This document shows positions 177-42,485 of a stretch of 64,000 nt of DNA, piece by piece (position 1 is the stretch's first letter; each line of letters starts with the position of its first letter). Location of the stretch: assembly GCA_020137815.1 (NCBI GenBank), contig CM035359.1, positions 496,001-560,000 of the forward strand, read 5' to 3'. Under the pieces are notes generated by a model that had not been told where the DNA came from, made no database searches, and saw nothing but the letters and a program-made list of their open reading frames with translations. The position numbers were made by a program, and so were the translations under genes. This DNA is from Hormiphora californensis. Taxonomy: Eukaryota; Animalia; Ctenophora.

Positions 177-278
177 CTGTGCCTTGAGTATTGCATGTGT
201 AGCAACTTTGACCTCTGCATAGTTCCCCTCCCCAATCTTCTCTCCTATCACGTAGTTGCCAACGTTTAGTATCTGCAT
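177..278 (-). CDS. First coding exon of a CAMK-group Ser/Thr kinase (MARK/SIK/AMPK-related); gene continues off the left edge
   Basis: MQILNVGNYVIGEKIGEGNYAEVKVATHAILKAQ has the G-loop (GEGNYA) and the VGxY...VKxAxH pattern of MARK/SIK kinases. GT donor (CAG|gtaac) at 176; acceptor (ttatttgtag) at 311. Confidence 0.75.
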
Positions 279-1481
279 TTGTCCACAGGGAAAACAACCA
301 ACAACACGACCTACAAATAACGTCGCTGTGTAGTGTGTTCATGATACAATAAAAAGTATTCACAATTCAAAATAATGTTATATATTTCGTTCGTATAATT
401 TAAACCAAATGCAATAAAGGTTGGCGTTTACTGTCAGTATCTCACCTCAATCTCCACACTGTCTCATCTCCAACACATCCTTCTCTAAAAACACAATAAT
501 TTTATATAAATGTCGACAAACTCAATAAATAATGATCCTTTTTTTAGAACAGTTCAGCCAAAGCGGGCCTAAGTCATAAAGATTTGGTCGTGGGACAACC
601 AAGACACAAGGTCTGAATCACTAATCCCATACTTGAAACTGTGAACTGCAAGTTTTAGCAGTTACCAGTGAAGCCTAAAAAGACTAACAATTAGGTAGAA
701 TACGAAAATCATCACGCAGGGATTGGGCACGACTATAATCTGGGTGCCTCTAACCATGTTGCAAGCCTGTCAAAAGAGTATACTTTTTCAAAAGGCTGCA
801 GCCACGCAACCACATGACCACAATCCACATTTCAAGGATAATGTTGTAATTATGCACTGAACTGCTGTAGACATCACCCACTCACTTCATACACACACAA
901 CACCCACACACATGACCAAGCCTGTACGACAGGTTATTGATCACCGGCTGTATTACAGCACGAGAGAGCCGTCACTAGTATCGTGCAGAGATCCGAAGAT
1001 CATGATAACAATTAATATGACGTGATCAACTGCTATAGCCCAACTGTTCATCCTGAGAATTCTGATACAAAGATATTATTTGCCGTACTGATATATGAGG
1101 TAACTCCAACCCCCCAGTTTCATCTCCTTGTTTAACATTGGGAGTTACCAAGGGAATCCACTGGGTTCGATTAATCTAGGCACATACCCACAGTACTATT
1201 CGAATTGGCGTATCTTTATATCAGGAATCTCGGATAGCAACAATCCGAGATTCCTGATATAAAGATACGCCAATTCGAATAGTACTGTGGGTATGTGCCT
1301 AGATTAATCGAACCCAGTGGATTCCCTTGGTAACTCCAAATGTTCATAAACATTCATAAACATTCATAAAATAGATTAAGTTAGGTACACAAAGTTTCAG
1401 CTCAGCAAAAGCTAACACTCAGAAGACAATACGTCAGCGATTTATATGTGCAGTCAAGTCACGATTAAAAGCAAAATAACT

Positions 1482-4454
1482 TCATGAATCGCTCATCTCT
1501 CTAAAAACACTTGGGTCATTCCTCCAATCGAAAAGGGAGTTACTATGCTCCACACGATAACCGCGAACAGGTGGCTGATCAGGGATAGTGGATAAGTAGG
1601 ATCCAAGGGACTGCTTCAGCTCGAGAAGTGAGATAGATCCTCTCACTGCACGGGGCAAGGAGTTCCAAATCTGGGCTCCTCTTACACCGAAAGATGCATC
1701 ATATGGGCCAGAGATGGTTTTGGCTGCGAGGTAATTATAACGGGGAATCACTGCCCTAATACCAAGACGGGGGTGCTCATTGAACAATAGCCCAGTACTG
1801 TTAGGTGCAACCTTATGGAGAACCTTCCAGACGTGGATAATCATGTAACGCTCACGTCTTCGTTGAAGAGACAGCAAATTCAGATGCTTTAATCTGTCCC
1901 AGTAGCCCATACCAGAACAGCTTTTAATCCTACGGGTAAAGTATCTCTGGGTTTCCTCAACTAATCCAATGTCTGACTTTTTAGTAGGACTCCAAAGTGG
2001 ACAGCAGTACTCCACCTGCGGTCTAATGATTGATTTCAGTAACGTTAGCATGGTCTCGTCTGACCTATCTCTAAATACACTGAGCGCCCATCCACTCATG
2101 CGACGGGCCTTGGCAGTGATATTACCGATGTGTTCAGTCCATGTACAGTCTGAAGAAAGGAGGACTCCTAAATCCCTGACCGTATTGCTAGGTGATATTG
2201 ACTCACCACCGGGGCCATTGTAGATGTAGTTCTCATAGGAAAAGGGAAGTTCTCTTAGGAGTAGTGTGGAACGAAGAGTGTAATGTAATAACTCAAACTT
2301 GTCCTGGTGAAGGGACATATTATTTTCTGCAGCCCAGTGTGCAAATTTATCTAGACTCTGCTGTAAGTTATCCCTGTCAACGAGGGTCTTAATAGCTTTC
2401 CACAGCTTGGAGTCATCCGCAAAGGTTAAGGCGGTGCCATTAAGGAGTGATTCAATATCAATCATATACACCAAAAATAGCAGCGGCCCAATCACGGTTC
2501 CTTGAGGAACTCCACTGATAACCGGTTCTGGGCGTGACTGAATCCCGTCTACAACAACTGTCTGAACTCTGTTAGTCAGGAAGTCACTTATCCAACGGTG
2601 TAGCCGTCCGCGGATGCCATACTTTTCTAGCTTGGTCATCAACACCTTGATATCAACCTTGTCAAAGGCCTTTTCCATATCCAGATACACAACATCTACC
2701 TCTGAGCCGTTGTTTAGTTCACGTAGTATGTTGTCATAATGGTTAAGTAACTGGGTGAGACAACTTCGATTTCTTCGAAAACCGTGTTGGCCATCGTTGA
2801 AAATCTCGTTTCTCTCGAGGTGGTCAACAACTTTATTTCTTACAACCCGTTCGAATGTTTTAATCAAATGAGATGTGAGAGCAACCGGTCGATAGTTTTT
2901 AGCTTCCATTTTAGAGCCCTTTTTGAATACCGGTGTTATTTGCTGACTCTTTAGAATAGCCGGGACAACTCCTTCATTAAAAGAGCGGTTCCAAAGTAAC
3001 CATATCGGATATGCCAACTGTTTCCGGCACTTTGATAGGATCGCCGCAGGTATATCACCAGGGGGTGCACCAGCGTAGGGGTCCAACTCAGTCAGAGCTC
3101 CTTCAATGCATTTAGGAGTGAATTCAAGATTGTCCAAGGTGAAGGTCGTAGAAGGAATATCCTTGGTAGCCTCCTCAGCTATACACCTGGTTGGGTCACT
3201 GAAGACTCCCACATATTGGGACTGAAGAATGTTGGATTTCTCAAGGGGGTCATCAGTTACAGTACCATCCGCTCTCAAGAGAGGTGCCACATTGGACTTA
3301 GTTTTCCGGTGCTTGTTTACAAAGGACCAGAAGAACCGGGGATTAGACTTGATAGTTCTGATTGCTTTCCTCTCCTTGCCTTCCAGGAGTCCAGTAAGAT
3401 GTGATTTGATCTTAGCAGCTGTGTTTTCCACCTTCCGCTCGAGTTTCTCAATGTAGGATTGGCGTGAGAGATTTTGCTTTGCTAGTTTTATCCTCTGGTT
3501 AAGCTTTTTCTGTCTCCTTTTCAGCCTTCGTAAGTAAGGATCTTTCTTTTTAGAGCTACCGAAAACCTTCCGTTTGCTATGTTTTTCGAAAACCTTCAAG
3601 ACAGTTTCTATGAGACAATTTACGTAGGCATACCCGTCGTCATCTGGATCGCAGGATGAGAGAAGAATATCCCAGTCAATGTGGCTTAGCTCCTCATTGG
3701 CAGCATCAAAGTCCGCATTGTGATAGTCCAAGGCCTTGAAACTCCTTCCAGGCCGTACCCGGTCGTAAGCATAAGACTGATTGAGTCCTATTCCGAGAAT
3801 ACACGACACCAACGCATGATCAGACATCTGAGTTGCTGAGACATCCGTGTCAAGCACATAATCGATCCTATTAGTGAGAACGATGTCCAGCAGATTTCGG
3901 CCTCTAGTAGGTTCCGTCACCACTTGGGAAAGAAAGTTTCTCTCAGCAAAGTCAACCAAGGCATTGCCTTGATCCGCTGAAAGAGTAGACCAGTTTACTT
4001 GGGGCATATTGAAATCGCCAAGTATGAACACATCTGGTGGGCTATCTCCACAGGAGTGACGTTTTATAAACTCCTCCAAAGTCTCCAGAACTTGGTGAGC
4101 AGGCGCTGTGGGGGCTCTGTACACTGATGCTATGATGGAGTTTGATTTAGGAACATGAACTGCTACTAGACTGTTACAGTCGTCTGAGTAGGTTATTTGG
4201 TCGGACGGGGAAATTGAGCAGTGAAGGTATAAAGCACATCCACCCCCAACCCTACCTTCCCGATCGCTGCGGATGATAGAATATCCAGGAATGTTAACCT
4301 GGGCATCTGTGAATTCCGCCCGCCACCACGTTTCCGTGATGGCTGCAGCCATGACAGGGACACCTGAGTTACATATGGTGTCTCTCAAGTTCTCCAGTTT
4401 GTACCTTGCCTCACTGTTTGCCGACGGATTAAGACTGCGGGCATTGAGTAGCAA
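1482..4454 (-). CDS. LINE ORF2: AP endonuclease + reverse transcriptase (990 codons; the ORF track starts it at TTG, not ATG)
   Basis: APE motifs LLNARSL, ITETW, GGGCALY, LGDFN, SDH. RT motifs NYRPVALTS, QHGFR, YLDMEKAFDKV, GVPQGTVIGP, FADD. CR1-type C-terminus VRDLGV, EYCCPLWSP, LSLQRRR. Confidence 0.95.
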   Translation of the reverse strand: MLLNARSLNPSANSEARYKLENLRDTICNSGVPVMAAAITETWWRAEFTDAQVNIPGYSIIRSDREGRVGGGCALYLHCSISPSDQITYSDDCNSLVAVHVPKSNSIIASVYRAPTAPAHQVLETLEEFIKRHSCGDSPPDVFILGDFNMPQVNWSTLSADQGNALVDFAERNFLSQVVTEPTRGRNLLDIVLTNRIDYVLDTDVSATQMSDHALVSCILGIGLNQSYAYDRVRPGRSFKALDYHNADFDAANEELSHIDWDILLSSCDPDDDGYAYVNCLIETVLKVFEKHSKRKVFGSSKKKDPYLRRLKRRQKKLNQRIKLAKQNLSRQSYIEKLERKVENTAAKIKSHLTGLLEGKERKAIRTIKSNPRFFWSFVNKHRKTKSNVAPLLRADGTVTDDPLEKSNILQSQYVGVFSDPTRCIAEEATKDIPSTTFTLDNLEFTPKCIEGALTELDPYAGAPPGDIPAAILSKCRKQLAYPIWLLWNRSFNEGVVPAILKSQQITPVFKKGSKMEAKNYRPVALTSHLIKTFERVVRNKVVDHLERNEIFNDGQHGFRRNRSCLTQLLNHYDNILRELNNGSEVDVVYLDMEKAFDKVDIKVLMTKLEKYGIRGRLHRWISDFLTNRVQTVVVDGIQSRPEPVISGVPQGTVIGPLLFLVYMIDIESLLNGTALTFADDSKLWKAIKTLVDRDNLQQSLDKFAHWAAENNMSLHQDKFELLHYTLRSTLLLRELPFSYENYIYNGPGGESISPSNTVRDLGVLLSSDCTWTEHIGNITAKARRMSGWALSVFRDRSDETMLTLLKSIIRPQVEYCCPLWSPTKKSDIGLVEETQRYFTRRIKSCSGMGYWDRLKHLNLLSLQRRRERYMIIHVWKVLHKVAPNSTGLLFNEHPRLGIRAVIPRYNYLAAKTISGPYDASFGVRGAQIWNSLPRAVRGSISLLELKQSLGSYLSTIPDQPPVRGYRVEHSNSLFDWRNDPSVFREMSDS

Positions 4455-4495
4455 CAGTTTAGACAGTCTACTGGGAACTATGGACCTAACTGGAG

Positions 4496-5733
4496 TTAGT
4501 ACCTCCCCCTCTGCTGATGAGGGCTGAAGGTGTAACCTGTTCCTGCCGGCAGTTGAGCCGGTTGGGAATGTTGGGAGTAGAACTGGTCTGGTTCTGGCTC
4601 TGGACGGTTCCTCATCTCCGTTCTCACTATCCCGGCTATTGTGTCCCTCAGCCGGTCGAGGACTGCCTCTAAAAAAGCAGGATCTGGTCCAGGCCTACGA
4701 TTCTGAGACTGAGGCTGGGACCATTGTACTCCACTCGACACCCTCGCCCTATTGGATTCATTAGACCAAGCTCCTGATTCCGGTGCTTGGCTTTGACCTT
4801 GAGCTGATGGGATTCTGTCACGGCGGTTCCTCTCGTTGCCAGTCCCTTCTTCAGGTGCTGTTTGGTACAGCTCTGTTTGTAACACGCATGCCGTAACTCG
4901 GAATTCTTGCATAGTGGAGGGTGGAAAAGGATACATTCAGTGTTCTGGCATCCAACGCTCCTCATAGATCCATAGTTACAAAACTTTTTGCACAGTGTAG
5001 GGTGAGATTTGGGACAAGATCTGCCACTAACTAGCTTCGTCCCATCTCTCCCGTGTCTGCACCTCCTTTGCAAATAAAACCTACACACTTCGTTTCCTGG
5101 AACACCCCTCTCTCCCTGTTCCGCTGGGTCCGGTAGGTCCTCTCGTTCCTCTGCAGTTCTACTGATGTGCCTTCCCAGGATCTGCTCTCGGTTTGAACTA
5201 CGTCTGGTCGAGTTATGACTAGGATCTGGACCACCGTCAGGTAGATGGCTAGTAAACCTTTCCAGAGTTTGTTTACCGAGGCAAGGGGAGCACACCCAAA
5301 TTCGGCTTTTGATAGCAGTGCTGCTGGCCTCTTCTCGTATCTTTGCACAGTTGTGCAGACCGCCACCACAGATGAAGCACCGAGCAGGGGGATTTTCATT
5401 TCTCTTCACGGAATACTTTTCGGTACACTCGCTGCATGTTTGGGGACCAAATCCCTCTATCCGCATGATGATCCAGTCAGCCAGGGTTGTTACTGAATGG
5501 TATTTCTGCACTCCAGACGCCACACATCTAACCTCTTGGCCAAGGAAGATAGCAGTTGCCTCCAGATTACTAGCTGGGATAGCCTCCAGTTTGCTGAGGT
5601 TTTCCTCATAGTCCAGAGAAGGGTCATACACTTCAATAACCTCCTTAACCGGTGTTCTGGCATCCTCTTTCAGCTCAGAGAGTACAGCAGCAAAGACGGC
5701 TGGATCTGTGTCATTAGCATGGTCCATTGCCAT
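4496..5733 (-). CDS. LINE ORF1 with PHD-like finger and CCCH zinc fingers; one frameshift near 4850
   Basis: ATG at 5733 (MAMDHAN). CSEC...CFICGGGLHNC...WVCSPC (PHD-like); CRFYLQRRCRHG..CPKSH and CKKFC..C..CILFH (CCCH). At CAC CTG AAG AA GGG ACT the expected HLKGT continues in the frame of the 4496..4936 ORF. Confidence 0.8.
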
Positions 5734-5777
5734 ACTAGACACTACAGAGGGATATTTGAAAACGCACGGGCGCGCGC

Positions 5778-5819
5778 CTCAAATTAATTTGTTTAAAGTA
5801 GTGTTGAAAAGTTTGAAAC
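5778..5819 (-). other. Ctenophore-type spliced-leader exon sequence at the 5' end of the LINE
   Basis: Minus strand reads GTTTCAAACTTTTCAACACTACTTTAAACAAATTAATTTGAG, matching the Pleurobrachia/Mnemiopsis-type SL from recall. It is followed by GCGCGC rather than a GT donor and lies 44 nt upstream of the ORF1 ATG. Confidence 0.85.
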
Positions 5820-6205
5820 AAGGAGATGAAACTGGGGGGTTGGAGTTACCTCATATATCAGTACGGCAAATAATATCTTTGTATCAGAATTCTCAGGATG
5901 AACAGTTGGGCTATAGCAGTTGATCACGTCATATTAATTGTTAACAATCCACATTGTAAACTTGTAATCGATAGCACTAACAGGCAATATATAGCAATAA
6001 GGGCCTCCCTAACGCGTATCGACCGCCAAATTGATAGCAACCTGCAAAACCAGGGCCAGATTTCAAGTCAAACAGACTTCAGGAGCCGCAGAAGCACCAC
6101 CGATTTACGTTCGTAAAGTTATTTTCGACCTCTAGCCAAATCGGCTCGAGCGGCACTCTCTCAAGTTCCCTTGTTGCAGTGGTGCACCATGAACGCGGCC
6201 CGATA

Positions 6206-6426
6206 GGGATCCCTAATAAAGTTGTGACTTGTCACCAAACATGTGGTTCCCGTGGCGGCGCGGCTTCAAAATGCGCGATTGTAACTTGTCACCGCATGGT
6301 TTGCGCCGCGCCACAGCTACGCGCAGTGGGAACCACGTGCGTTTTGGTACGCGCACACGCGGTGACAAGTCACAACCGCGCCTCCGCAAGACTACAGTGA
6401 CAAGTCACAACTTTATTAGGGATCCC
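6206..6426. mobile_element. MITE with 30-bp TIRs and TA TSD (Tc1/mariner-type)
   Basis: GGGATCCCTAATAAAGTTGTGACTTGTCAC ... GTGACAAGTCACAACTTTATTAGGGATCCC, flanked by TA on both sides. Confidence 0.8.
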
Positions 6427-6725
6427 TATGGTTTAGCGAAGAGAAGTGAAAAATCTGGGTCTGAAAGCGCAACCCGGCGATCGACCAGAATAAATGCATC
6501 CTTCGCGCGCAGCTGTTCTTCATTGCCGCGTAGTAGAATAATCAGGTATCTCGCGCGTTACAGCTACGATGTATCGCCAGAGAACGTTTCGCGGCCAGAG
6601 ATTTCCTATCACAGACAACGAAGTTTCCTAATTGGACCCCAAGTTCCTGACAAGAGCCTTTCAGCCAATTAAAACTAGGTATCTTCCAATAAATAAAAAG
6701 TCAAAGAAATAAAAAACACGACAAG

Positions 6726-9700
6726 TTATTCCATTGCTTCTCGATCCTTCTTGAGGAGACCCATAAAGGCCTTCTTCTCGGCGTCTGTCTGGAATCGTCC
6801 GTGTCCCCATTTGGAGGCGGTATCGATGAATTTCAGGTTGATCTTCTCCAGGGCGACCCTCTTGGTGTGTACAAGGAGAGATTTCCTCAGTGTGATAACT
6901 CGCTTTCTGGGTCCCATGACACATCCCTTCAACATCAGGAAGTCCTCGTTGATCTGTCCGTAGTGATGGAAACCGCCCTGGAGAGAGGATGTGGGTTAGT
7001 TTGGTAATTAATTATCAGCCATGAAAAGTGATTCGATGAGGGGAGAAACTGTCATTTGGATCTAAGAAGAGTACGGCACAAGTTTAGCCACACCCTCCCA
7101 CTGTCCATACGTGTGTTTTACTCTAGCATTCCAGAAATCTCAGAACCTTATATTAGAAGGGTCGGACAACCAAGAAATGCCACCTTGGTTCATGGTCATG
7201 GAGACGAATGTGAACATTTTAACACGCCGCGCGTATACTTCAACACGGAGAGTGCTAACAATATGGGTGCTTTTTACTGAGTGGGGTCACCGCGCGCGGG
7301 CTTCAAATCCAGCAATGAACATTTGCAATGTTCGAGATGTGAGGTTTTGGCCCTAATTTGGGATCCCTTAATGGCCCTAATTTAGAATACCTAAATCTTG
7401 CTGTTACTTACCATGGGGGTGATAGGCTTGTCAGTAAGATCGAAGGCAGTAGAGGCAGATTTCTGGTCTCCCTTGGTTCCAACCCTGTAGACCTTCTTGT
7501 TAACCTCAGTCCTGAATTGAAGAAAATGTGTTAGTGATTTGAAATGGGAGAGTTGAGCAAGCGAGGGCTTCAAAGTTAGAAATTGTCATTTGGATCTAAG
7601 AAGAGTGTGGCACAAGAAAGCTGCACCCTCCCACTGTCCATACGTGTTTTACTATAGCATTCCAGAAATCTCAGAACCTTATATTGGAAGGGTCGGACAA
7701 CCAAGAAATGCTACAAGTGATATTCAATATTGTATGAAGGTGTTATCGTACCTGTGATGATAACCGAACTGTCCAGCACGGGGAACAGACCAGCAGACCT
7801 TGGACGGATGCCAGGCTCCAATACAAGCAACCTTCCTCAGACCCTTGTGAGTCTTCCTCGGCAACTTCTTGGTACCCCACCTGTAGGTGACACCTGGCAG
7901 AGAGAAAGAGGGGGTTAGATATTGAGATGTTACAGATGGTGGAGTTAGAGGTAGGTGTTCAAATTAGGGCACTTGATATTTCGTGGTTTTCCTAAGAAAC
8001 CTACCCTTGAATCCGTGTCCACGGGTAACTCCAATGATGTCAATCATCTCGTTCTCACTGAACAGGTCCTTAACACTGATGGGCTTCTCCAGCAGAGATC
8101 GGGCAAAGGTAACCTGGGGAGGGGACGGGTTAGGAACATAGGAGAGGAGAGTATAGATAGATAGAAGGAGAGATAGAAAGGAGATTGAGAGATGTGGTTA
8201 CTAAACACCAAAATGACGATCAAAAGAGATGCGTCATTTAACGATATGCTGTAACAGTTACTATGGCAACCTTTCGACCACTCCTGCCACTAGAAATCAG
8301 TGAGTGGAGATACCAGCTGCCAAGAAGTTTAATAGAAGAGGTGATAGGGGAAGGAAGGGAGATATAGAAACGGGATAGAGGAGGGATAGGAAGAGAGAAG
8401 GGTGACAAGGGGGGAGGTGGGGTAGAACAAGAAAGAATATATTATAGATGAGAACAGAGTTAACCGCTATTATTATCGTACCTTATCTGCGATTTCTCCT
8501 CCATTAATCTGGATCTCCATGATGTTAGCCTTCTTCTCCTGCAGCTTGAACAGCTTGGGCTGGGTGTGACACAGGACTCGAATAACGGTACAGTACTTGG
8601 CCATCTGGGGAGGGAAAGGATGGATTAGATCTACACAAATTTAAAGGAGGGTTAGAACTCAACAACTAGATGATATGTTCAACTTGAAGAGAAACTAAGA
8701 GAGATTTGTCCAAGAAAAAGATTGTCAGTGTAAGTTGAGAGGTAGCGAAAAAAGAAAAGGGTTGTCCCAGAACCTTGCAACACGCTAGATCACATAGAGA
8801 ACAGAATGTGAACAGGCAATGGGTTGTTAGTGTACCAGTACTGCGGCCTCGAATTCAATAAGTAGACAAGAATTTGGTACTGGAATTTGATTTGTAATTA
8901 GTATAATTTAATTAGAGCCTAGATGGTGTTAAAGTTATAACTGAGAGAATGGAGAAGGATGATCAGAAGATTGTCTGATAGCAGGAAAATGGGTCTGATA
9001 TTGTTTGATAGTAGAGAAAAGAAGGGACTGTCTGATAGACCTACCTTGGCAAAGTCAGACTCGATGCTCTTCTTTCCGTCCTCATCGGCCCACTTCTGAG
9101 CAGTTCGGGTATGGGCCTTCTTCTTGGATCGATACCTGATATACACATTGATCTCATACTGCCTACCTTCTCTCGTCCTCAGACGCTACAAACACTGTAG
9201 CGGCCCCCGATACCCTAACAACCAGAACTCAACATGTCTCTCACTCTTTAGTATTTAGATATCAGTCAGGGAGAGATGTAGTGTTTGATGTAGCAGGTTA
9301 TAGCGATCCCTTGTCTCTCTCTAAGAGAGAGGGGAGTGTAACGCTTTAGTACTGAAACAGCTAGCACAACAAATCCCGATTGAGATATCTTCAATACTAT
9401 TGAGTGAGACAGGGAGAACTGCTGTGTAGGGATACAGGGTCGGACAAGAGAGGTATTAGAAGTTTCACACAGTGAGAGAGAGGAGATCAAACACTGTGTT
9501 AGAGAATAGTGGGTGAGCATTGTTATATTGGACTACAGGATATCTGCAAATCTTAACAAGCTCATACTTATGAATCCTTTAAGAGTCTTCATTCTAAAAT
9601 CGAATTTCTCGCTTTTCAATCATTTGCTACGGTCTCACTAATTCTAATTCTAATCTCTCTCAACGTACCAGTTCTTGTAGAATCGTCGCTTGCATTCATC

Positions 9701-10338
9701 ACTGATATGCTGAGAGAAGACAGTCTTGAAGGACCTCATGCCTCGTGGTGTCTCGATATAACCTACAACACCAACAGCAACCATGGGAGGGGTCTCAATA
9801 ATGGTGACGGCCTCGACAACCTCTTTCTTGTGGGACCCTGGTGGGTGGAAGTGGGTTAGTTAGGAACTGTTAGATAACCAAGATGCAAGGATGATTATCA
9901 GTTTAGTTCTCTTTACAATGGTCAATTATAATTTGAAGCTAGAGTGGTTCTATCATTTAAAATTAGATTATTTTAGAGTTAACTTACTTGATCCGACCCT
10001 GTCGACCTCTCGGAGAATGTGAGACATGCCAGCCTTGTGTCCCATGAAGGCAGTCAGATGACAAGGTTTGCTCTTGTCGTCCTTGGGGAAGCTCTTGACC
10101 TTACCCCTGTGTCGGGCACACCTCTTGCGGGGGAGGAATCCGAGGGAACCGTGCCTGGGGGCCTTAAACTTTCGGTGACTCTGAGAGAAGGAGAGGGAAG
10201 GGGTGTTAGAGGGGTGTTAGAGAGAGTGGTTGAGGGAGTGTTGGAAAAAGTTAATAGTGGAGCACAAGGTAGGCAGGACACAATAGAGTAACACGTTGAC
10301 AAGCAGATTGATCAATGTCAATTACTGTAACTTACCAT
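6726..10338 (-). CDS. RPL3: 60S ribosomal protein L3 (uL3), 9 coding exons, 393 aa
   Basis: join(10338-10336,10180-9988,9837-9669,9135-9045,8604-8482,8113-8005,7893-7752,7511-7412,6977-6726) = 1182 nt, all GT-AG introns. [21 protein letters not shown] ... [16 protein letters not shown]. Confidence 0.97.
7047..7182 (-). ncRNA. Intronic box H/ACA snoRNA, copy A (RPL3 last intron)
   Basis: Hairpin-AGAGTA (H box)-hairpin-ACAgtt, sense to the host gene. Near-identical paralog at 7581-7713. The 3' pocket CAGTGGGA/TCTT is complementary to conserved LSU rRNA GAGA-UU-CCCACUG. Confidence 0.8.
7581..7713 (-). ncRNA. Intronic box H/ACA snoRNA, copy B
   Basis: Same sequence as 7047-7182 with H box ATAGTA and terminal ACAatt. 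Similarity stops at the snoRNA ends; differences fall mainly in the upper stems and loops. Confidence 0.8.
8190..8323 (-). ncRNA. Intronic box H/ACA snoRNA, ACA8/SNORA8 (snR31)-like
   Basis: H box ATAGTA, terminal ACAtct. 5' pocket GGTATCT/TCG pairs 18S CGA-UC-AGAUACC; 3' pocket ATCGTT/TGGT pairs 18S ACCA-UA-AACGAU. These are the two sites (human U1056 and U1081) guided by ACA8. Confidence 0.85.
8760..8885 (-). ncRNA. Candidate intronic box H/ACA RNA
   Basis: CCAGTAC..GTACTGG hairpin, H box ACACTA, second hairpin CCCA..TCACAT/ATGTGA..TGGG, then ACAacc; 126 nt. Target unclear. Confidence 0.55.
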
Positions 10339-12338: not shown

Positions 12339-15300
12339 TCAGTTGCACAGTACTGAAAAACAAGGAGGAGGGTGTTAGAATGGGGTTAGTAGGGTGTTGG
12401 GGGTGTGTTAGGGGGGGGTGTTAGGGGGTATCTAGGATGAGCTGATAGAAATAATGCAGTAATACAGTGGAAAGAGAAGGAAAGGAAAAAGAAGGGAAGG
12501 AAAATTAGTTATCTGCAGTTTTTTTGGCAAAAAACAGCTAACAGGCTCAATTGAATGCTAGAAAATGCGACATTAATTATGCCTCATGCACATTGTGTTT
12601 CCCCAAAATTGTATTGTCTCATATCCATGTTAATTATAGCAGGTGAGAACAGGTCGGTACACGCCATACTCTCTCCACTAGTTAATGTAACGATCTCTCC
12701 CCCTCTCTCTCTACTAACTAAAGTAACAATCTCACCGGTTACTTTGTGTGTACTGACCAATATTCTCACCAACTAGAAACAAGGCCTTGCAGACTCACCG
12801 GTGGGTCAAGCTTTTCTGGCCTCAAGTGCCGCTACGACAGCTTCTTAAAACAAGGAGAGGTAGAGAGAACAAGAGGGAGAATTGAAAATAAGATACACAT
12901 TGAACCGCGATTAATATAATTATTTGCTATTTAGTTAGCTGTACAATTAGTTACTTAATTGGTTCTTACCGAGTGCTTCACCCGAAAAGTATTTCACATC
13001 GTGATCGTCATCAGTGTAGAGTCTGGTCAGACAAGGTTTCACCTGGTTCTCAATCGTACTGGAGAAATAACACAGATTAATTAATTAGTTAATTAAGGGG
13101 ATATTAATATTACATATTAGTGTGAAATATATTTGATAAACTGTATGTTTTTAACTCACTATGAATCCAGAGCGGGTGTAATCTTCGCCATAGTTTTAGC
13201 GACATTGAACCTAACGTTGGGTACTGCATCATTAGCTAGGTTGCTAATTACAGGCACCATGAACTTGGTGATCACATCAGGGGGGCACACCTGGGGAGAA
13301 TAATTAGAAAATGATTTGAATTATCGATCTTGTAAATTAAATTGATCTAACCCACCCTAGTAATCGTCTGAAGGTCTGAACTTGATGCAGAAACAGCTCT
13401 GAGTAAAACAGAGCTGTTTCTGCAACTAACAGACGCTAGACTAATACTAATATCCCTACTGCTACTACTATATTAAGACACATACCTCAGCCAGGACGTT
13501 GATGGCAAATAGGGTGGTCATCCTGTGGAGGTAGTTGGGATCCCTAGCCATGGACAGCACTTTGGTGATGATAGTGTTCTGTGGGGAAGGATGGGAGGTG
13601 TTAGATGGTGTTCTGTGGAGAAGGATGGGAGGTGTTAGATAGTGTTCTGTGGAGGTATTATATTGAGGAATAGCAACATGTCACAATGGTAACCAAACAG
13701 TTAGCAGGTAACCATGGTATCCAAGGCAACCTATTAGTATGTAACCATAACAACCGGATCTTACCTGTGCCCATTCCATTCCGAAGATAGCCACGAGGCG
13801 CTTTAGGTTGGAGGTAGCTGCAGATCGGATAGCAAACACGCCATCAACCAACCAGCTCATGCACAGAGAGTTCAACTTCTCATCAAAGAATTCAACGCCT
13901 GGGAGGGTTATAGGATGCTGTTAGAGTCTAACAGTTAGACTGGAAATGATGAATTGTACTAAACTGATTGGATTATCAATTAACTAATTAATTGTTATAA
14001 GATGCTGTTATCTTCTAACAGTTAGACTGGAAATGATGAATTGTACTAAACTGATTGGATGATCAATCAATTAACGAATTAATTAATTACCTAAATGCTT
14101 GGGGACATTCTAACTTACCCAGTTGCTCGGCTAGGAGGGGCATGTGCTCGATGATAGCCAGCCTGACTCGCCACTTGGGGTCCTCGGCTAGCTCAACAAT
14201 GGCGGGCAATAGGGATTGGGATAGCTGGTGGATACCAATAACCTGGGAGAATTGGGTTGTTAGGGCAACAGGGATTGGGATAGCTGGTGGATACCAATAA
14301 CCTGGGAGAATTGGGTTGTTAGGGCAACAGGGATTGGGATAGCTGGTGGATACCAATAACCTGGGAGAATTGGGTTGTCAGGGCAACAGAGATTGGGATA
14401 GCTGGTGGATACCAATAACCTGGGAGAATTGGGTTGTTAGGGCAACAGGGATTGGGATAGCTGGTGGATACCAATAACCTGGGAGAATTGGGTTGTTAGG
14501 GCAACAGAGATTGGGATAGCTGGTGGATACCAATAACCTGGGAGAATTGGGTTGTTAGGGCAACAGGGATTGGGATAGCTGGTGGATACCAATAACCTGG
14601 GAGAATTGGGTTGTTAGGGCAACAGGGATTGGGATAGCTGATGGATACCAATAACCTGGGAGAGTTGGGTTGTTAGGGCAACAGGGATTGGGATAGCTGG
14701 TGGATACCAATAACCTGGGAGAGTTGGGTTGTTAGGGCAACAGGGATTGGGATAGCTGGTGGATACCAATAACCTGGGAGAGTTGGGTTGTTAGGGCAAC
14801 AGGGATTGGGATAGCTGGTGGATACCAATAACCTGGGAGAGTTGGGTTGTTAGGGCAACAGGGATTGGGATAGCTGGTGGATACCAATAACCTGGGAGAA
14901 TTGGGTTGTTAGGGCAACAGGGATTGGGATAGCTGGTGGATACCAATAACCTGGGAGAATTGGGTTGTTAGGGCAACAGGGATTGGGATAGCTGGTGGAT
15001 ACCAATAACCTGGGAGAATTGGGTTGTTAGGGCAACAGGGATTGGGATAGCTGGTGGATACCAATAACCTGGGAGAATTGGGTTGTTAGGGCAACAGGGA
15101 TTGGGCATTTTAGCTTGATTTAGTAGCATTCAATGAATAAATTTCGTGATATAAACTCTTGAGCTAGTTGATGATAGGTCTGCGTGTGTCTGTGTGAAAG
15201 AGATTGACTACAACTGTTCTGAACTGAACGGGGTAACAAGGTGTCTCGGGTGTCTGTGCCTAAATAAAAAGAGTGACTACAGTGCCCTGGACCCTGATGA

Positions 15301-18300
15301 GAACAGGGCTATTAGTCTATTCCAACAAAAGACACTCTAACGAGATCTCGGGTTTCGAAAGAGTGATTGTTGTTAGAAAGGAGATGTTTTCTAACAAAGT
15401 GCACTATGGAACAATTGGAACCCCTCAACTCTCCCAACTATTTAAACCCCACACAACCACCTACTCATCATTCCTTTGCACCATGAAGACAGCACTACTT
15501 CTCTTCCCCCTGCTCGCCCTGACCCTCTCTGCCTCCCTTGTCGAGGAGTACTTCGATGCTTTGGAGCGGTTTTCTACAGACACTAATGGAGATGCAGTGT
15601 TGCTCAGTTCTGCTACCCCTGCCTCCCAGAAAGAACACTTCCTGGCGTTCAAGAACTACAAAGAAGAGGTCGATGCCATCAATTCGGACCCTGACTGTCC
15701 CTACCATGCTGAGATCAACAAGTTTTCCATCATGACTGAACAGGAGAGAATGCAGTTTACTGGACTCAACATAACCGACGCCCCTGTCCCAGAGGAAGAA
15801 GAAGAGGAGATGACGGTTTCCATGGTTTCTACCCCGTCTTATATCAACTGGGTGTCACGGGGTGCCCAACCCGCCATTAGGAACCAGGGTGGATGTGGGT
15901 CTTGTTGGGCCTTTGCAGCAGTCTCAGCCATTGAGGGTAGCTACTTCACCACAACCGGGGATCTGGTGGCGTTCTCCGATCAAGAGATACTGGATTGCTC
16001 CTATGATGCAAGCCGGAATGGCTGCAACGGTGGATGGTTGAATGCTCCTATCGACTATGTCAGGAAGGCTGGCCGACTTGCATCTGTCACCCAGGCCCCG
16101 TACAAAGGACGAGATGGAGTTTGCAGTTACAGTACCAAGGGAAACTCTCTGACCAAGGCCAGGATCACTGGATACACAACTGCACGAGGTGACGCTAGTC
16201 TTCAGAATGCGGTGACCAAGGGAGTTGTATCTGTTGCAATCTACGTTGGAAGCTCCTTCTTCAAGTACCAGAGAGGTCTGTACAAGGATACCAACACCTG
16301 CAGGAGCACCACCAGTCCTAACCATGCGGTGACGGTTGTGGGCTATGGAACCCAGGGTGGTGTGGGTTACTGGAGGGTCAGGAACTCATGGGGTGCCAAC
16401 TGGGGTGCCGAGGGGTACGTCCTGATGAGCCGAGCTGTCCAAGACAACTGCAGGATTGCCAGTTATGGATATCTCACAAAGGCAGCTTGCACTGGGTAAG
16501 AGTAGTTTCAAACTAGATGTAGTTTTTCAATCAACCAGTAGTTCTAACTCAGAAAATGTAAACTAACTCTGAAACTCCCAATTTGCATACCCCTGTTTTT
16601 TCAACACTAATCTCTCCACTCCCAGTAATCGATGCAACAAACCGGACTTTAACGAAGAGAAAGAGGAGGAAAAGGAAGAGAAAGAGGAGGAGAACAAGGA
16701 AGAGGAGAAGGAAGAAGAGGAGGAAAAGGAAAACTGTAAGGATAGGAACATGAGGTGTAACCGTTACAAGATGTACTGCACAAAGAATGGCGGGTTAGTG
16801 ACACTTGTACATAACGCTTTTCACTCCTAAATACAATTGGCGATTAGTTCCTCTCGAGCTCTCCAGTCTCCTAATGATATCAACAGCACACTTTTCAAAG
16901 CCCATGCACCCTATTCTAAGCCACTCAGTACCTTATAAAATCACCCCAATCCCAATCTCCCAATTCTAACCAGATTCTAACCAGTAACCACTAACCACAT
17001 CATTCTAACCCTCTTCGAGCTAACCACACACCATTTCTCCTCCAGATACTACTCCTGGATGCTAAAGAACTGTGCTGCAACCTGCAACTGGTGTGAGGAT
17101 GCTAGCCCTGAGGAGGGAGAGTGTCCATCTGGAACTGTTATGTGTGGAGATGGTGTCTGCAGACATGAGCATATGTGCCATTAGAGACACTCTGTACTAT
17201 TTCAGGAGACTATTTGTAAAACAGTGTGTTCGGTGTAACGTGTAAATTATTTGATATCTATTTGATTGATCTAAACATGGATATATTTCGTGCTCTACTC
17301 GAAGCCAAATCTTTCCTTGCCCTTTCAACATAAGAGCAGATGTATTCGGCCCAGTTCGGAGAGGGCAGCCTTTTGTCAGACGACCTTTACCGGGGTCGGA
17401 AGAAGATTTGGGGTGACAGATGTAAGATGAAGACAACAGATTGTGTTAACGTCTTACCTTGTTAACGCTATCAAGATTGGAGATGATGTTTAGTCGGACA
17501 TCTGAGTGTTCGTCCTTGAGGAGAATCAGGAACAGGGGCAGGAGGTGCTGCACAGTATTATCCTTGCCTGGGGAGAGAGAGGGAGAGGTGTTAGGGGAAA
17601 GAGAGAGGGACAGTTAGGGAGGGAGGGGTCAGTGTTAGGAATAGGATCAAACAAGAATAGTGCTGCACAGTGCAAACCTACCCATGATAGGAGATAGTCC
17701 CATAATGACAGAGGCAAGGGCAGCCTTTACGTGCTGGTTAGCATCACAAACCAATTCCTGAAATGAGTTCAATGTAACCATGGTGATAATATTGGGCATC
17801 CCAGACACCTATCACCATGGTGATCATATATTGAGTATCTCAGACAACTATCACCATGGTGATATTGAGCATCCCAGACACCTATCACCATGGTGATCAT
17901 ATATTGAGTATCTCAGACAACTATCACCATGGTGATATTGAGCATCCCAGACACCTATCACCATGGTGATATTGAGCATCCCAGACACCTGTCACCATAG
18001 TGATATTGATCATCCCAGACACCTGTCACCATAGTGATATTGAGCATCCCAGACACCTGTCACCATAGTGATATTGATCATCCCAGACACCTGTCACCAT
18101 AGTGATATTGAGCATCCCAGACACCTATCACCATGGTGATCATATATTGAGTATCTCAGACACCTATCACTATGGTGATCATATATTGAGTATCTCAGAC
18201 AACTATCACCATGGTGATATTGAGCATCCCAGACACCTATCACCCTGGTGATATGGGGGGGGGGGGCAAGGCCAAAAAAAGCCAGATCAATCCCGGATTT

Positions 18301-29300: not shown

Positions 29301-32300
29301 GTAAATCGCGGTCCGACTGTACTTAAATGTCATTCTAAAAACTTACATTTTGCTTCTCAGCTTCATTTTTGGAAATCAGGTTGTCATTTTGAGCCGCTAG
29401 ATCTGCTATTTTACGTTGATAGATCTTTTTATGATCCACTAACGTTGCACACTGCGAAGATGTAATGAAATGTTTATAAGCAAAAGCAAATCTTTATATA
29501 CCTTACTCTCGTTAATTAAGCTCGCATATTTCAAGAAACTTTTAAATAAGAAACTTTTTTTCTGGGAAACTACAGGTGTAAACAATCCAAAAACAAAAAG
29601 AATTTCTCCTTTATCAAGAAACTAAACAAGTTAGGGGTGTTCTATTTTGTTGTGGTGTCTCTGAATTATGTGATTCACATTTGAAAAGTTTCTTATAAAA
29701 AAGTTTCTTACTAAAGCGTTTCTTAAAAAATGAGAGTAAGGTATATATTTTGTTTAATCCAATGACTGACTAAAAATTGATGCGTTTAAAAAGGTGACTA
29801 CCTTTAGTTTTTCCGCCGTATTTTGGGAAACTAGATTTGCTTTTTCAACGGCTAGATTTGTTGCTTTGTTACGCTGTGCGACATACGCATCTCTGTATTC
29901 TTTTTCCCTTGCAGCAATTTCGACACACTGAAAAACGCAGTTTTAGGCATGACCATCAAAAACTATGATTTTATAATAAAAAACAAAACGAGCGTATAAT
30001 ACATATTATTCTGAATGAGATCTGAGCAAGAATTTAATATGGACACACTACAGGAATACTTGGTAAAAACACAATAAACAGTTAGGCGGTGGTGGGTAGT
30101 ATGTGAGATCTGATCCTGGGTGGGATGTGATGTGATCTACGGTTATTTTTTGTCTTAACAAAATGCATAATGTGGATCAAGTTTCACCAAATTTTGCCCC
30201 TTCTATTGTTTTGGTTCAAAGTCGCGGGAATGCTGCAAATTCAGTGTGAGAGAAATCAAGGGAAGTTGAGACTATTCGAACATTGCTTTTTTACCTGTAT
30301 TTTAACTGCTTCATTTTGGGCAATAAGCTTGCTATTTTTAAGCTCAATATCTTTTATTTTATTTTCACTTGCAGTAATCTTGTAGCGGTTTGTCTGACAC
30401 TCAGCTTTCCACGTTCTCTCACTTTCAACCACGTTTTCAGTCTGAAAAGCGATGAAAGAAAATATTGGGAAATGTGTGTGACCAAATTGCAAATTTTTTA
30501 GTGTGAATTAGCGATTTGGGCACTTTTTCTGATATAATGAAAATGACCATATTTATATATTACATGTACATATATGTACTACATATATGCAACCAGCATT
30601 TTTCGCATTCAAATATTCGATATTTTCTTTCAGTATTACCTTCTGCTTGTAGGTCCCGACCTGGTTTGCTAGTTGTGCGTTTTGAATTAACAAATTCTGA
30701 ACCTGTAAAGCAGATAAAGTCTGATAAAATCAAGGATTAGCACTTATAGCTTTTGAGACTCAAAAAAATAATTTTGAGTATCAGTTTCACATTTCACTTA
30801 TCAGTTTCGTTTAAAAAGCTCGCTCCTGATAGTTGCTTGTTCTTGCACCGTTGTACACGCCGACGAACATGGCCTTGTCTGACCCCAAGTTGGATCGTGC
30901 CTTCACTACCTGGCGGCATGGCTGTCCAGGTACCCGTGCTGTTGCTTCTGATTACAGTCGGCTGGAGACGTCCATCATGTCCACATTGAGACGAGTCGCG
31001 GGGTACCCTGACCCTAACAAGGAAGGCGGCACATTTGACCCGAACAAGTTGACCAGCACCTATCTCTCTAAACTAGATACCAACAAGAAGGTCAGCTTTA
31101 TCTCTGATCTGGCGGGTTTGCTTTGGTATCGTGCACTCCCTCTCGGTCGGTTAGCTAGGAAGAACTTGCTATCAGATAACACGCGACCGGATCTTAATAA
31201 TTCTGTGTGTAGCACACGGAGCAATGAATCGAAAGAGAAGGTAGAGAAGCTCATGGAGCATCTGGACCACACCCGAGACCGTCTTGACAGTGCTACAGAT
31301 CTGCTATTGAAACGTGATTCTGAGATAATTGTACTGCAATCGGAGATTAGCGCCCTGAAAGATTCGATCATATCAATGAAAGATACCATGCTAGATAAGA
31401 GTGTGTCTGCTGTGCAGACTGTTGTTAAGGACGAGATTCAAAACTACTCAGCTGTTCTCCAGGCAGCTGCTACTGCTGTGAACCAGACATGTGTATCTGC
31501 CCTTGCTCCCAGCAAACTCCGAACAGCAATTGCCAGTGCTTCAGTAGACCGTAGTAGCAACCTGATGGTGTATGGTCTCGCAGAGAGTGATCAACAAAGT
31601 GACAGTACTTTAGTCAAGCAACTATTTGAACATTTGTCTGAAGCGCCAGTGTTATCAGAGGTGGCACGACTTGGAAAGAGAGGTGGTGAGAGGGTACGGC
31701 CAGTGCGGGTGGTGCTGAGGAACAGAGAGATTGCCAGGACTATTTTGGGAAAATCGGTATCTCTAAAGAACTCAGACCAATATCAGTCAGTGTTCGTTGC
31801 ACCAGACAGATCAGTAGAGGAGAGAACTGAGAGACGAGAATTAGTTACTAAACTGAGAGAGAAAAGAGATAATGAACCTGATAAAGTGTGGAGAATTAGA
31901 AGAGGCTCTATTGTAGAGAGTGAGACGTGAGAAGTGTTGCGAGAGATTAGTGAGAGTGATGAATAAGCTAATTGTTCGAGATATGGATCTATTTTATGTT
32001 TTATATTTTTGTTATGATTTTAAGTTTTGTAAAGACACAGTGGGGACCAGGATGGGGTAGCAGGTTCAAAGCACACACAAGACCTCACCGTCTTCGTGCT
32101 AGCGACCCTGTTACGCCACCCTGAATCCTCACTCAGTTTGGTCTGTGTGGCTGGTTTGCTTACTATTATATAATATTTATTTCGGCGCAATGCCACTGCC
32201 AGCGGCAGTTTTGATTGATTGATTGATTGATTGAATTTCGTCAAGCAGGTCAGTATAACGGAGGGGGGGGGGGGCTGAAAGAGTGAAATTTGTCACCGTA

Positions 32301-41664: not shown

Positions 41665-42485
41665 TAGTCAGGACCACTATTGGTGCGCGGTCGTGCCCAC
41701 GGAAGGAGTGCTTGGATCATCTTGAAACCGGTTTTAAGTTCACTAATGCATGCCCAAAAGTGTCTGTAGCCATTTGGGTGATGTTCTGACAATCCAATCA
41801 CGAGTTATGACCGAAAAACAGTCAAAAAAGACGTTTTAAAGTGACAAAAAGGAGGATCTGAACACAGCCCTTATATGAAGGGCTGGGGCTTTGAAACTTC
41901 TTGTGTGGACAGAGAATCGTCCAAATTTGCAGTGTCAAATTTCAGATAGTTTCTATCTTTTGTAGTTATCTAATTAGAGTCGTTTAAACATGTGAGACAA
42001 CCTATATGACCCTACAAAACAGGGTGATTAGGTACTGCTTCCGTCTCATATTGCTTGCTCTCACCGCTTGTATGCTTTAATCCCTTCTCTAATTGGGCAA
42101 ATCTCGTCAAGTGATCACTTCACAAGCAGTATTATAGGGCCCTTTAGCAACTTCTCACATGTTTAAACGACTCTAATTAGATAACTACAAAAGATAGAAA
42201 CTATCTGAAAGTTGACACTGCAAATTTGGACGATTCTCTGTCCACACAAGAAGTTTCAAAGCCCCAGCCCTTCATATAAGGGCTGTGTTCAGATCCTCCT
42301 TTTTGTCACTTTAAAACGTCTTTTTTGACTGTTTTTCGGTCATAACTCGTGATTGGATTGTCAGAACATCACCCAAATGGCTACAGACACTTTTGGGCAT
42401 GCATTAGTGAACTTAAAACCGGTTTCAAGATGATCCAAGCACTCCTTCCGTGGGCACGACAACGCACCAATAGCGGTCCTGACTA
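41665..42485. mobile_element. Foldback non-autonomous DNA transposon with 333-bp TIRs, TAG...CTA ends and 3-bp TSD (Academ-like)
   Basis: 41665-41997 is the reverse complement of 42153-42485. TAT is duplicated. The empty site gcacTATtatatg is preserved in the paralogous spacer at 33184-33196. Confidence 0.85.

What the first reader, a model, noticed from the sequence alone, without database searches (positions are those of the whole stretch)
5778..5819. A LINE whose 5' end is the host spliced leader: an apparently retroposed trans-spliced transposon mRNA
Seen: the insertion starts with a 42-nt AT-rich tract ending TTAATTTGAG, 44 nt before the ORF1 ATG. The other arm of the host palindrome keeps the empty site (ccttgttt|aacatt at 1126-1139), so this tract belongs to the insertion, joined through GTTT microhomology with no clear TSD. 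Known (from recall): the tract matches the ctenophore SL exon. Inference: the element's RNA was SL trans-spliced and then reverse-transcribed to full length. Such a copy has lost its promoter/outron, so either it is a dead end or the family uses host trans-splicing (or an encoded SL mimic) for capping and translation.
Basis: partly seen in the sequence, partly recalled or inferred. Interest (0 to 1): 0.82.

Follow-up and report, generated by a model that had tools for sequence, protein, structure and literature searches.

The report
Comb-jelly LINEs headed by spliced leader
A jumping gene (LINE) in a comb-jelly genome begins with the short leader that these animals splice onto their messenger RNAs, as do sister copies and distant LINEs in other comb-jelly DNA, so these elements likely copy themselves from leader-spliced RNA, which would explain many of the hundreds of stray leader copies reported in comb-jelly genomes.

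Summary
Confirmed and broader than one copy. A 4,471-bp APE+RT LINE (1345-5815, minus strand) splits one arm of a foldback repeat with no target duplication. Its head matches the published Hormiphora spliced leader (SL) at 42 of 42 bases, 4 shared with the target. This copy has an ORF1 frameshift, so it is probably dead.

Contigs of four samples carry the same SL|LINE junction, and two samples hold sister copies with the SL joined 36 nt downstream at a canonical TAG acceptor, the footprint expected of trans-splicing. In unrelated assemblies, five more LINEs of two distant groups (ORF2 23-27% identical) start with 40-43 perfect SL bases behind different flanks. Best reading (0.75): SL trans-splicing of LINE RNA, then retroposition, as a family habit. 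How source copies are transcribed is not shown; the SL's own GAG end is a weak acceptor.

The idea is in print as a passing suggestion for flatworms, and this scan noted SL-headed LINEs before in dinoflagellates, Perkinsus and Euglena; I found no ctenophore report. No RNA read of the junction and no read across the host flank was seen.

The parts
5778..5819 (-). Spliced-leader exon copy at the LINE 5' end; 5778-5815 inserted, 5816-5819 (GTTT) shared with the target (microhomology)
   Evidence: 42/42 to the published leader; 42 of 43 exon bases of SL RNA gene locus L087
5734..5777 (-). 44-nt 5' UTR; starts with a GC-rich motif (5760-5777) shared by other SL-headed elements in the same organism
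   Evidence: loose ends at 5759, 5760, 5766
5742..5757 (-). Alternative trans-splice acceptor (pyrimidine tract + TAG ending at 5742), 8 nt before the ORF1 ATG; sister genomic copies have the SL joined here
   Evidence: joint 5741->5778 in X2, X5 and X2, X6; 10 of 15 pyrimidines before the AG
4496..5733 (-). ORF1 (PHD-like finger near residues 96-148, CCCH-like fingers); frameshifted near 4830-4850 in this copy; homologous reading ends near 4499
   Evidence: (weak PHD match, E 0.06); table 5c shows 39 letters in a sister contig where this copy has 2
1482..4694 (-). ORF2 open frame, 1,070 codons: APE endonuclease and reverse transcriptase, catalytic motifs present; first in-frame ATG (4352) lies inside the APE domain
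   Evidence: Pfam RVT_1 E 5e-28, Exo_endo_phos_2 E 6e-11; motifs
1345..1370 (-). 3' tail of 2.6 tandem copies of a 10-nt unit; no poly(A), no target-site duplication
1003..1235 (.). Left arm of the host foldback repeat; keeps the empty site at 1133|1134
   Evidence: very high contig depth shows it is a dispersed repeat
1243..1344 (.). Inner part of the right arm of the foldback, up to the LINE 3' junction
   Evidence: I4, 102 nt, 99%
5816..5946 (.). Outer part of the right arm of the foldback, from the LINE 5' junction
   Evidence: I2, 131 nt, 99%

Best explanation
This is a full-length CR1-group-like LINE copy whose first bases are the host spliced-leader exon, likely because the element's RNA was SL trans-spliced and then reverse-transcribed into the genome, and SL heads recur on sister copies and on distant LINEs in other ctenophore-type DNA. 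Shown: the SL arrived with the insertion; the junction is at the last exon base; a second junction exists at a canonical acceptor 36 nt downstream; LINEs of two distant groups carry perfect SL heads behind unrelated flanks. Inferred: the SL is renewed from SL RNA in most retrotransposition rounds rather than inherited; ORF2 then primes at the target with the tandem tail, copies to the cap end, and the last 0-8 bases are lost or paired with the target by microhomology. Least certain step, how source copies are transcribed: most likely (about 0.45 given trans-splicing) by read-through from host transcription, with re-splicing at the AG that ends the genomic SL or its relic or at a downstream AG; nearly as likely (about 0.4) from rarer masters with their own upstream promoter. 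This copy lies in sense between RPL3 and a kinase first exon, but its ORF1 frameshift makes it a probable dead end.
For: (1) Empty site in the other arm: SL is part of the insertion. (2) 42/42 identity to the published leader; the same sequence sits at the very end of 107 of 121 loci from a metagenome scan, in front of varied mRNA-like sequence, and before a GT donor in a tandem SL RNA gene (L087/L088). (3) Contigs covering both sides of the SL|UTR junction in 4 of 4 runs laid (four samples, two studies). (4) Joint 5741->5778 in X2, X5, X6 (two samples, two studies): the skipped 36 nt end in a pyrimidine tract + TAG; in X2 a 616-nt contig has 21 SL bases then 595 LINE bases with one difference. 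Alternative trans-splice acceptors are ordinary for SL targets (PMC5832876 passages). (5) Of 14 loci with more than 3 nt beyond the SL, 5 are LINEs (L028, L039, L042, L064 with APE/RT; L081 with this element's ORF1 family, E 1e-18), 1 is an ORF1-like repeat (L071), 1 unresolved (L085), 2 the SL gene, 5 host mRNA contigs. (6) ORF1 of the four L2-like elements is only 43-59% identical and their ORF2 23-27% identical to the window's, yet their SL heads are perfect over 40-43 nt. (7) A sister subfamily in which the SL lies inside a longer inherited 5' end has an SL with an internal deletion (loose end at 5788 in 4 of 4 runs): SL inherited as DNA decays. (8) About 30% of Hydra TE Iso-Seq reads carry an SL (PMC12220107 passage).
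Against: No RNA read or RNA contig of this LINE's SL junction was seen; X19, the only run of this organism label guessed to be RNA, does not cover the element. All runs were contigs; no listed record meets the tool's 31-letters-each-side rule at the SL|LINE junction (short sides 21-27 nt) and none was listed across the host|SL junction; X1/X3 may be the assembly's own source. The joint at 5741 was absent from X1, X3, X4 lists, and a 36-nt deletion between two AG dinucleotides, or a GC-AG cis intron, would give the same joint. The SL ends in GAG with 6 of 15 pyrimidines, whereas 8 of 8 RPL3 acceptors read here end in CAG, so re-splicing at the genomic SL end is doubtful, and strong downstream AGs persist in several elements. 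The scan pattern demanded 24 perfect SL bases, so elements with decayed heads or no SL could not be counted; I have no denominator of full-length LINEs without SL. No whole genome was available.
Confidence: 0.75

Rival explanations
1. Same trans-splicing step, but every SL-headed copy is a dead end: rare master copies with their own promoter and outron feed the family, and the SL head is only a tag of mRNA processing. This is a branch within the best explanation; the figure is its share of the total.
For: The GAG end of the SL is a poor acceptor. A sister subfamily has a shared upstream extension, in two variants, ahead of a decayed SL, which could be such a master. This copy is frameshifted. 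C. elegans Cer1 keeps SL1 off its genomic RNA (PMC3315495 passages), showing that elements can depend on the unspliced form.
Against: No SL-free loose end at 5777 or 5741 among the 22 of 25 rows shown; in X2 the only ORF1 5' contig of this subfamily is the SL-at-5741 form (unbranched 616 nt). The candidate master itself carries an SL relic, so it descends from an SL-headed copy. Contigs drop rare variants, so absence is weak.
Confidence: 0.3
2. Encoded SL mimic: the families captured the SL once, inherit it as DNA, and transcribe it from an internal promoter (for example the GC-rich motif just behind it), without trans-splicing in each round.
For: The GC-rich 18-mer after the SL is shared by several element families, and CGCG-rich stretches mark likely promoters in this window. 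It avoids the weak-GAG problem. DinoSL relics were proposed to act as promoters (PMC5585692 passages).
Against: Perfect SL heads on families whose ORF1s are 43-59% identical and on two distant LINE groups; most copies are clipped at the 5' end by 1-8 nt yet none has lost more in lineage fashion; the 5741 form lacks the GC motif; an inherited SL was seen decaying.
Confidence: 0.13
3. Template switching or RNA ligation: the reverse transcriptase jumps from LINE RNA to SL RNA, as proposed for U6/L1 chimeras.
For: U6/L1 and other small-RNA/L1 chimeras are known (PMC11838501 passages).
Against: All 8 element heads (window and 7 loci) end at the last exon base and none carries SL intron sequence; the LINE partners are full length, not 5'-truncated; the second junction sits at a splice acceptor.
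Confidence: 0.05
4. NeSL/SLACS-like: a source copy sits in an SL RNA gene at the exon end, is transcribed from the SL promoter, and spreads the exon as a 5' transduction.
For: SL-exon-targeting non-LTR elements exist (PMC4640811 passages).
Against: Those use a restriction-like endonuclease in the cited cases; these are APE elements. No SL-gene intron or upstream sequence (L087) matches the flanks of the window element or the seven loci. It does not explain the second acceptor or several unrelated families.
Confidence: 0.04
5. Assembly or cDNA chimera.
For: The host|SL junction of this copy was not shown in independent contigs; the S. mansoni authors raised the same caveat.
Against: The foldback arm resumes to the base on both sides of the insertion; SL|LINE contigs occur in four samples; L028, L039, L071, L081 hold 38-282 nt of flank, the SL and the element in one contig.
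Confidence: 0.03

Closest known systems
SL-bearing retrotransposon loci of parasitic flatworms (Boroni et al. 2018, PMC5832876; PMC12582326, 2025)
   Same: SL exon sequence next to transposable elements in an animal genome, read by the authors as possible integration of trans-spliced retrotransposon RNA: 6 of 32 extra SL loci in S. mansoni (passages and supplement rows); 597 loci within 500 bp of mobile elements, mainly LTR and LINE, in 24 species (section 6 read).
   Different: There the loci were filtered out as by-products, partial leaders, with no junction, empty-site or family analysis in the text I saw (supplement of PMC12582326 unreadable). Here: another phylum, exact exon-end junctions on full-length LINEs, an empty site, an alternative acceptor fixed in DNA, two LINE groups.
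Dinoflagellate SL-relict retrogenes (Song et al. 2017, PMC5585692; Slamovits and Keeling 2008 as cited there)
   Same: DNA-encoded SL at the 5' end marks reverse transcription of trans-spliced mRNA (passages).
   Different: Those are host genes, often with stacked relics. Here the retroposed RNA is the autonomous element's own; no stacked SLs were seen, and no clear SL-headed host retrogene among the genomic-type loci.
SL trans-splicing of TE transcripts in Hydra (PMC12220107) and of Cer1 in C. elegans (PMC3315495)
   Same: TE RNAs use the host SL machinery (passages).
   Different: RNA-level only; the passages report no SL-headed genomic copies, and Cer1's genomic RNA is not SL1-spliced.
SL-gene-specific non-LTR elements (NeSL of nematodes; SLACS/CRE of trypanosomatids, the latter recalled)
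   Same: A non-LTR element directly behind an SL exon.
   Different: They insert into SL genes; here the SL travels with the element to unrelated sites and the endonuclease is APE.
CR1-group LINEs (CR1, L2)
   Same: Two ORFs, APE + RT, PHD-like finger in ORF1 (common in CR1/L2, PMC4120745 passages), tandem-repeat tail, short or no TSD, 5' microhomology (PMC4245944 passages).
   Different: 5' end is the host SL exon with a 44-nt UTR; clade not placed on a tree with named elements.

Membership tests
APE-type LINE | ORF2 with APE endonuclease followed by RT | tested here: met
   Pfam; motifs; best PDB sequence matches are L1 ORF2p
APE-type LINE | 3' tail of A or short tandem repeats at the insertion end | tested here: met
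   2.6 copies of a 10-nt unit at 1345-1370
APE-type LINE | Intact coding capacity (autonomous copy) | tested here: not met
   ORF1 frameshift near 4830-4850 against 397-442 aa homologs; ORF2 frame is open
CR1 clade / CR1 group | RT phylogeny groups with named CR1 elements | not tested
CR1 clade / CR1 group | PHD finger in ORF1 (frequent, not diagnostic) | tested here: inconclusive
   Cys/His pattern conserved in alignment A1; weak match to the MTF2 PHD entry, E 0.06
Retrocopy of SL trans-spliced RNA | 5' end identical to the SL exon | tested here: met
   42/42 to the published leader; 42 of 43 to SL gene L087
Retrocopy of SL trans-spliced RNA | Junction at the exon donor site, no SL intron | tested here: met
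Retrocopy of SL trans-spliced RNA | SL absent from the pre-insertion site | tested here: met
   empty site in the left foldback arm
Retrocopy of SL trans-spliced RNA | An acceptor AG at the junction in an unspliced parent form | tested here: inconclusive
   Met for the 5741 junction (TAG at 5742 in this window). Not found for the 5778 junction: no SL-free upstream form listed
Retrocopy of SL trans-spliced RNA | SL-LINE junction in capped RNA | not testable with these tools
   Only contigs were served and no RNA run of the organism covers the element
SL-gene-targeting elements (NeSL/SLACS type) | Insertion inside an SL RNA gene, SL intron on the 3' flank | tested here: not met
   3' flank is the foldback arm; no match of L087 flanks to element flanks
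SL-gene-targeting elements (NeSL/SLACS type) | Restriction-like endonuclease | tested here: not met
   APE domain

The most novel reading that the evidence does not exclude
Ctenophore LINEs of at least two distant clades have given up their own promoter and run an SL-dependent cycle: an SL-headed copy lying in sense within host transcription is read through, re-spliced to a fresh SL at its own leader relic, and so regains an exact, capped 5' end in every round. Most of the 718 and 491 stray SL copies reported in Hormiphora and Mnemiopsis are then heads of full-length retroelements.
Probability: 0.35. Interest if true: 0.8.

Novelty: new member of a known kind. Interest (0 to 1): 0.56.

Why it matters
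PMC8527503 counted 718 leader copies in the H. californensis genome and 491 in M. leidyi, noted that they cause false shared first exons, and gave no origin in the passages I read. SL-headed retroelements are a concrete, countable explanation. The SL also marks the true 5' end of full-length LINE copies, which is usually hard to define for CR1/L2-type elements. If SL-headed copies are themselves sources, trans-splicing would solve the LINE 5'-end and promoter problem the way internal promoters (L1) or self-cleaving ribozymes (R2; recalled) do, in an early-branching animal lineage.

Tried and rejected
No whole genome is held, so no census of copies. Viral contigs: 0 matches to the SL pattern. 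Full records of L081, L085, L087 could not be fetched, so L085 stays unresolved (486 of 1,907 nt held; weak alignment only to the 30.8-kb element). Rfam found nothing on five loci including the SL gene. Pairwise BLAST missed L081 against ORF1; a profile of the ORF1 family found it. The protein atlas gave no answer twice. PDB and Pfam gave no name for the 30.8-kb ORF family, so its LINE-ORF1 label is recalled. X19 shows no cover over the LINE body; as contigs this is no proof of silence. Contig depths of the 5741 form (258 in X2) exceed those of single flank-bearing contigs in the same run (37, 59), which hints at several copies, but the tool states depth is no copy number. I looked for a TSD and found none at this site; flanks of L042 and L064 are too short (5-6 nt) to judge. 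Derelle et al. 2010 is not held; nothing of it was seen. Passages of PMC7986045, PMC5240408, PMC12460157, PMC4558846 and bioRxiv 10.64898/2026.05.21.726589 did not describe SL-headed LINE copies. An early hunch that the mixed loose-end consensus behind the SL is a hammerhead motif was not testable.

Full report
Observation. The window's first 6 kb hold a foldback repeat whose right arm is split by a 4,471-bp insertion. The arms are 1003-1133 with 5816-5946 and 1134-1235 with 1243-1344, both 99% complementary; the left arm runs on across 1133|1134, so it preserves the empty site, and the insertion is 1345-5815 with no duplication or loss of target. On the minus strand the insertion reads: 38 AT-rich bases, a 44-nt UTR, ORF1 from 5733, an ORF2 frame of 1,070 codons with APE and RT domains, a short 3' UTR and 2.6 copies of a 10-nt tail unit. 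The 42 bases 5778-5819 are identical to bases 3-44 of the H. californensis leader in PMC8527503 (passages); four of them are also target bases, a 5' microhomology of the kind described for LINE 5' joining (PMC4245944 passages). Chance expectation of the 38-mer is 2.5e-17. One correction: ten ORF1 homologs exist, most 397-442 aa, and they continue in another frame after about 4830-4850 to about 4499; a sister contig has 39 letters where this copy has 2 (table 5c). The copy is full length but not intact.

The sequence is a working SL. In 107 of 121 the SL lies within 3 nt of the contig end in front of varied mRNA-like sequence. L087/L088 hold it before a GT donor in a 778-bp tandem, an SL RNA gene; the window matches 42 of its 43 exon bases.

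Sister copies in the same organism. No genome was held, so I laid contigs of public runs: X1, X2, X5, X19 on 900-6300 and X2, X3, X4, X6 on 5600-5800; 7 of the 19 runs listed. All four runs (four samples, two studies) have contigs with letters on both sides of the SL|UTR junction, though fewer than the 31 letters per side that the tool asks for (I cut the stretch 23 nt into the SL, and contigs break inside a high-copy repeat). X2, X5 and X6 show a joint from 5741 to 5778: the SL is fused 36 nt further downstream, right after a pyrimidine tract + TAG, 8 nt before the ORF1 ATG. In X2 this is a 616-nt contig of 21 SL bases and 595 LINE bases with one difference. X1, X3 and X4 did not list it. Loose ends at 5759, 5760 (all four runs) and 5766 show other element families that begin with the SL and the same GC-rich motif. 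A loose end at 5788 in all four runs shows a subfamily in which an internally deleted SL follows a shared upstream sequence in two variants. In one search, 21 and 24 contigs diverge at the SL 3' end in X2 and X5, and 14 at its 5' end in X2: the SL is a dispersed sequence in DNA. No SL-free upstream end at 5777 or 5741 appeared among 22 of 25 rows shown; contigs drop rare variants. No listed record crossed the host|SL junction of this copy, and X1/X3 may be its source sample.

Other assemblies. Fourteen of the 121 loci have more than 3 nt beyond the SL. Five come from one assembly that I take to be DNA because its contigs run past element tails into flanks: L028, L039, L042 and L064 are two-ORF LINEs with APE/RT directly behind 40-43 perfect SL bases and different flanks; L085 is unresolved. 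Their ORF1s are 43-59% identical to each other and their ORF2s 23-27% to the window's; I call them L2-like and the window's CR1-like from recalled motifs, not from a tree. L081 has 282 nt of flank, 42 SL bases and an ORF of the window's ORF1 family (profile E 1e-18, the only hit among 2,893 translated segments); it comes from an assembly that otherwise looks like RNA. L071 has flank, SL and an ORF related to a multi-copy repeat ORF also present in this window at 30869. Two loci are the SL gene; five are host-mRNA contigs with 4-8 extra bases (L017, L059, L089) or a partial SL behind other sequence (L019, L066; chimeras or retrocopies). The pattern required a perfect SL 3' half, so this is no census.

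Mechanism. Shown: the SL came with the insertion; all eight element heads end at the last exon base without SL intron; a second junction uses a canonical acceptor; perfect SL heads sit on deeply diverged LINEs, while an SL inherited inside a longer 5' end has decayed. Inferred (0.75): the SL is added to element RNA by trans-splicing and copied at insertion, with 0-8 bases lost at the cap end. Open: the source of transcription. This copy lies in sense between the RPL3 3' end, a CpG/CGCG-rich stretch at 6001-6600 and a kinase-like first exon near 178-277, so read-through is possible, and the SL itself ends in AG. Against simple re-splicing there: that AG is a GAG with 6 of 15 pyrimidines, whereas 8 of 8 RPL3 acceptors read by eye end in CAG and 6 of 8 show a CTAAY branch motif; and stronger AGs persist just downstream in several elements. 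So promoter-bearing masters with dead-end progeny (0.3 overall) and an encoded SL with internal promoter (0.13) stay alive. Template switching, an SL-gene-resident source (no SL-gene flank at any element) and chimera are unlikely.

What is known. Ten literature searches found no report of SL-headed LINEs in ctenophores; the library lacks most subscription papers, Derelle et al. 2010 was not held, Repbase was not available, and the supplements of PMC8527503 and PMC12582326 could not be read and may bear on this. The idea itself is in print for flatworms: six SL exons merged to TEs in S. mansoni, read as trans-spliced retrocopies or misassembly (PMC5832876, passages and supplement rows), and 597 partial-leader loci near LTR and LINE elements, which 'may be' integrated trans-spliced retrotransposon RNA (PMC12582326, section 6). 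Hydra TE transcripts carry SLs at about 30%; dinoflagellate retrogenes carry SL relics; NeSL targets SL genes; U6/L1 chimeras are the non-splicing parallel. This scan's earlier notes describe SL-headed LINEs in dinoflagellates, Perkinsus and Euglena, none in ctenophores; they are unchecked and add no evidence.

Verdict. A real, young, probably dead LINE copy that records SL trans-splicing of its RNA, and a window on a habit shared by several ctenophore LINE families. New member of a known but barely studied kind; interest 0.56. The bold reading, a promoter-less SL-dependent cycle that accounts for most of the 718 stray leaders, has probability about 0.35 and can be settled with an assembly census and Iso-Seq reads assigned to single copies.

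Noticed in passing
window 30762-32230 (+): A second, short retroelement-like repeat: one 353-aa ORF (30869-31930; 27 homologs at 41-93%), an (ATTG)n tail near 32210-32230, no ORF2, and 90 nt upstream a 14-of-17 match to the SL 3' end. Its homologs L071 and L015 are SL-headed. One other 14/17 match occurs at 60943 (-), so chance is not excluded.
   Followed up: partly
window 23387-63357 (-): Tandem cluster of at least five ZNFX1-like helicase genes, two of them intact and intronless (1,763 and 1,765 aa), with a C-terminal PARP catalytic domain (Pfam E 4e-12, one copy tested); others are broken into pieces. Possibly an expanded innate-immunity family.
   Followed up: partly
L087 and L088 (one contig): Tandem SL RNA genes, 778-bp period, not matched by Rfam. 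The gene has C, not G, before the 43-nt exon, so the first G of the published 44-nt leader may be a cap or template-switch artefact, or a species difference.
   Followed up: partly
window 5778, loose ends in runs X2, X5, X19: The mixed consensus of contigs that diverge at the SL 3' end shows a CGAAAC motif about 20 nt downstream in three runs, hinting at a further abundant SL-headed family; a hammerhead or Penelope link is only a recalled hunch.
   Followed up: no
window 6728-10338 (-): RPL3 gene with introns ending in CTAAY branch + pyrimidine tract + CAG; two introns (about 7050-7140 and 7580-7710) share a near-identical stretch that could be a duplicated snoRNA.
   Followed up: partly
window 178-310 (-) and 6001-6600: First coding exon of a protein kinase just downstream of the LINE, and a CpG/CGCG-rich stretch with a 33-nt perfect inverted repeat (6203-6429) just upstream: the LINE may sit in that gene's outron or first intron.
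   Followed up: partly
window 15297-16499 (+): Intronless papain-family cysteine protease, 400 aa.
   Followed up: no
window 41665-42485: Another young foldback element, 333-nt arms 99% complementary.
   Followed up: no
L042, ORF2 linker: In-frame tandem expansion of a 13-residue Gly-rich unit between APE and RT that leaves the frame open.
   Followed up: no
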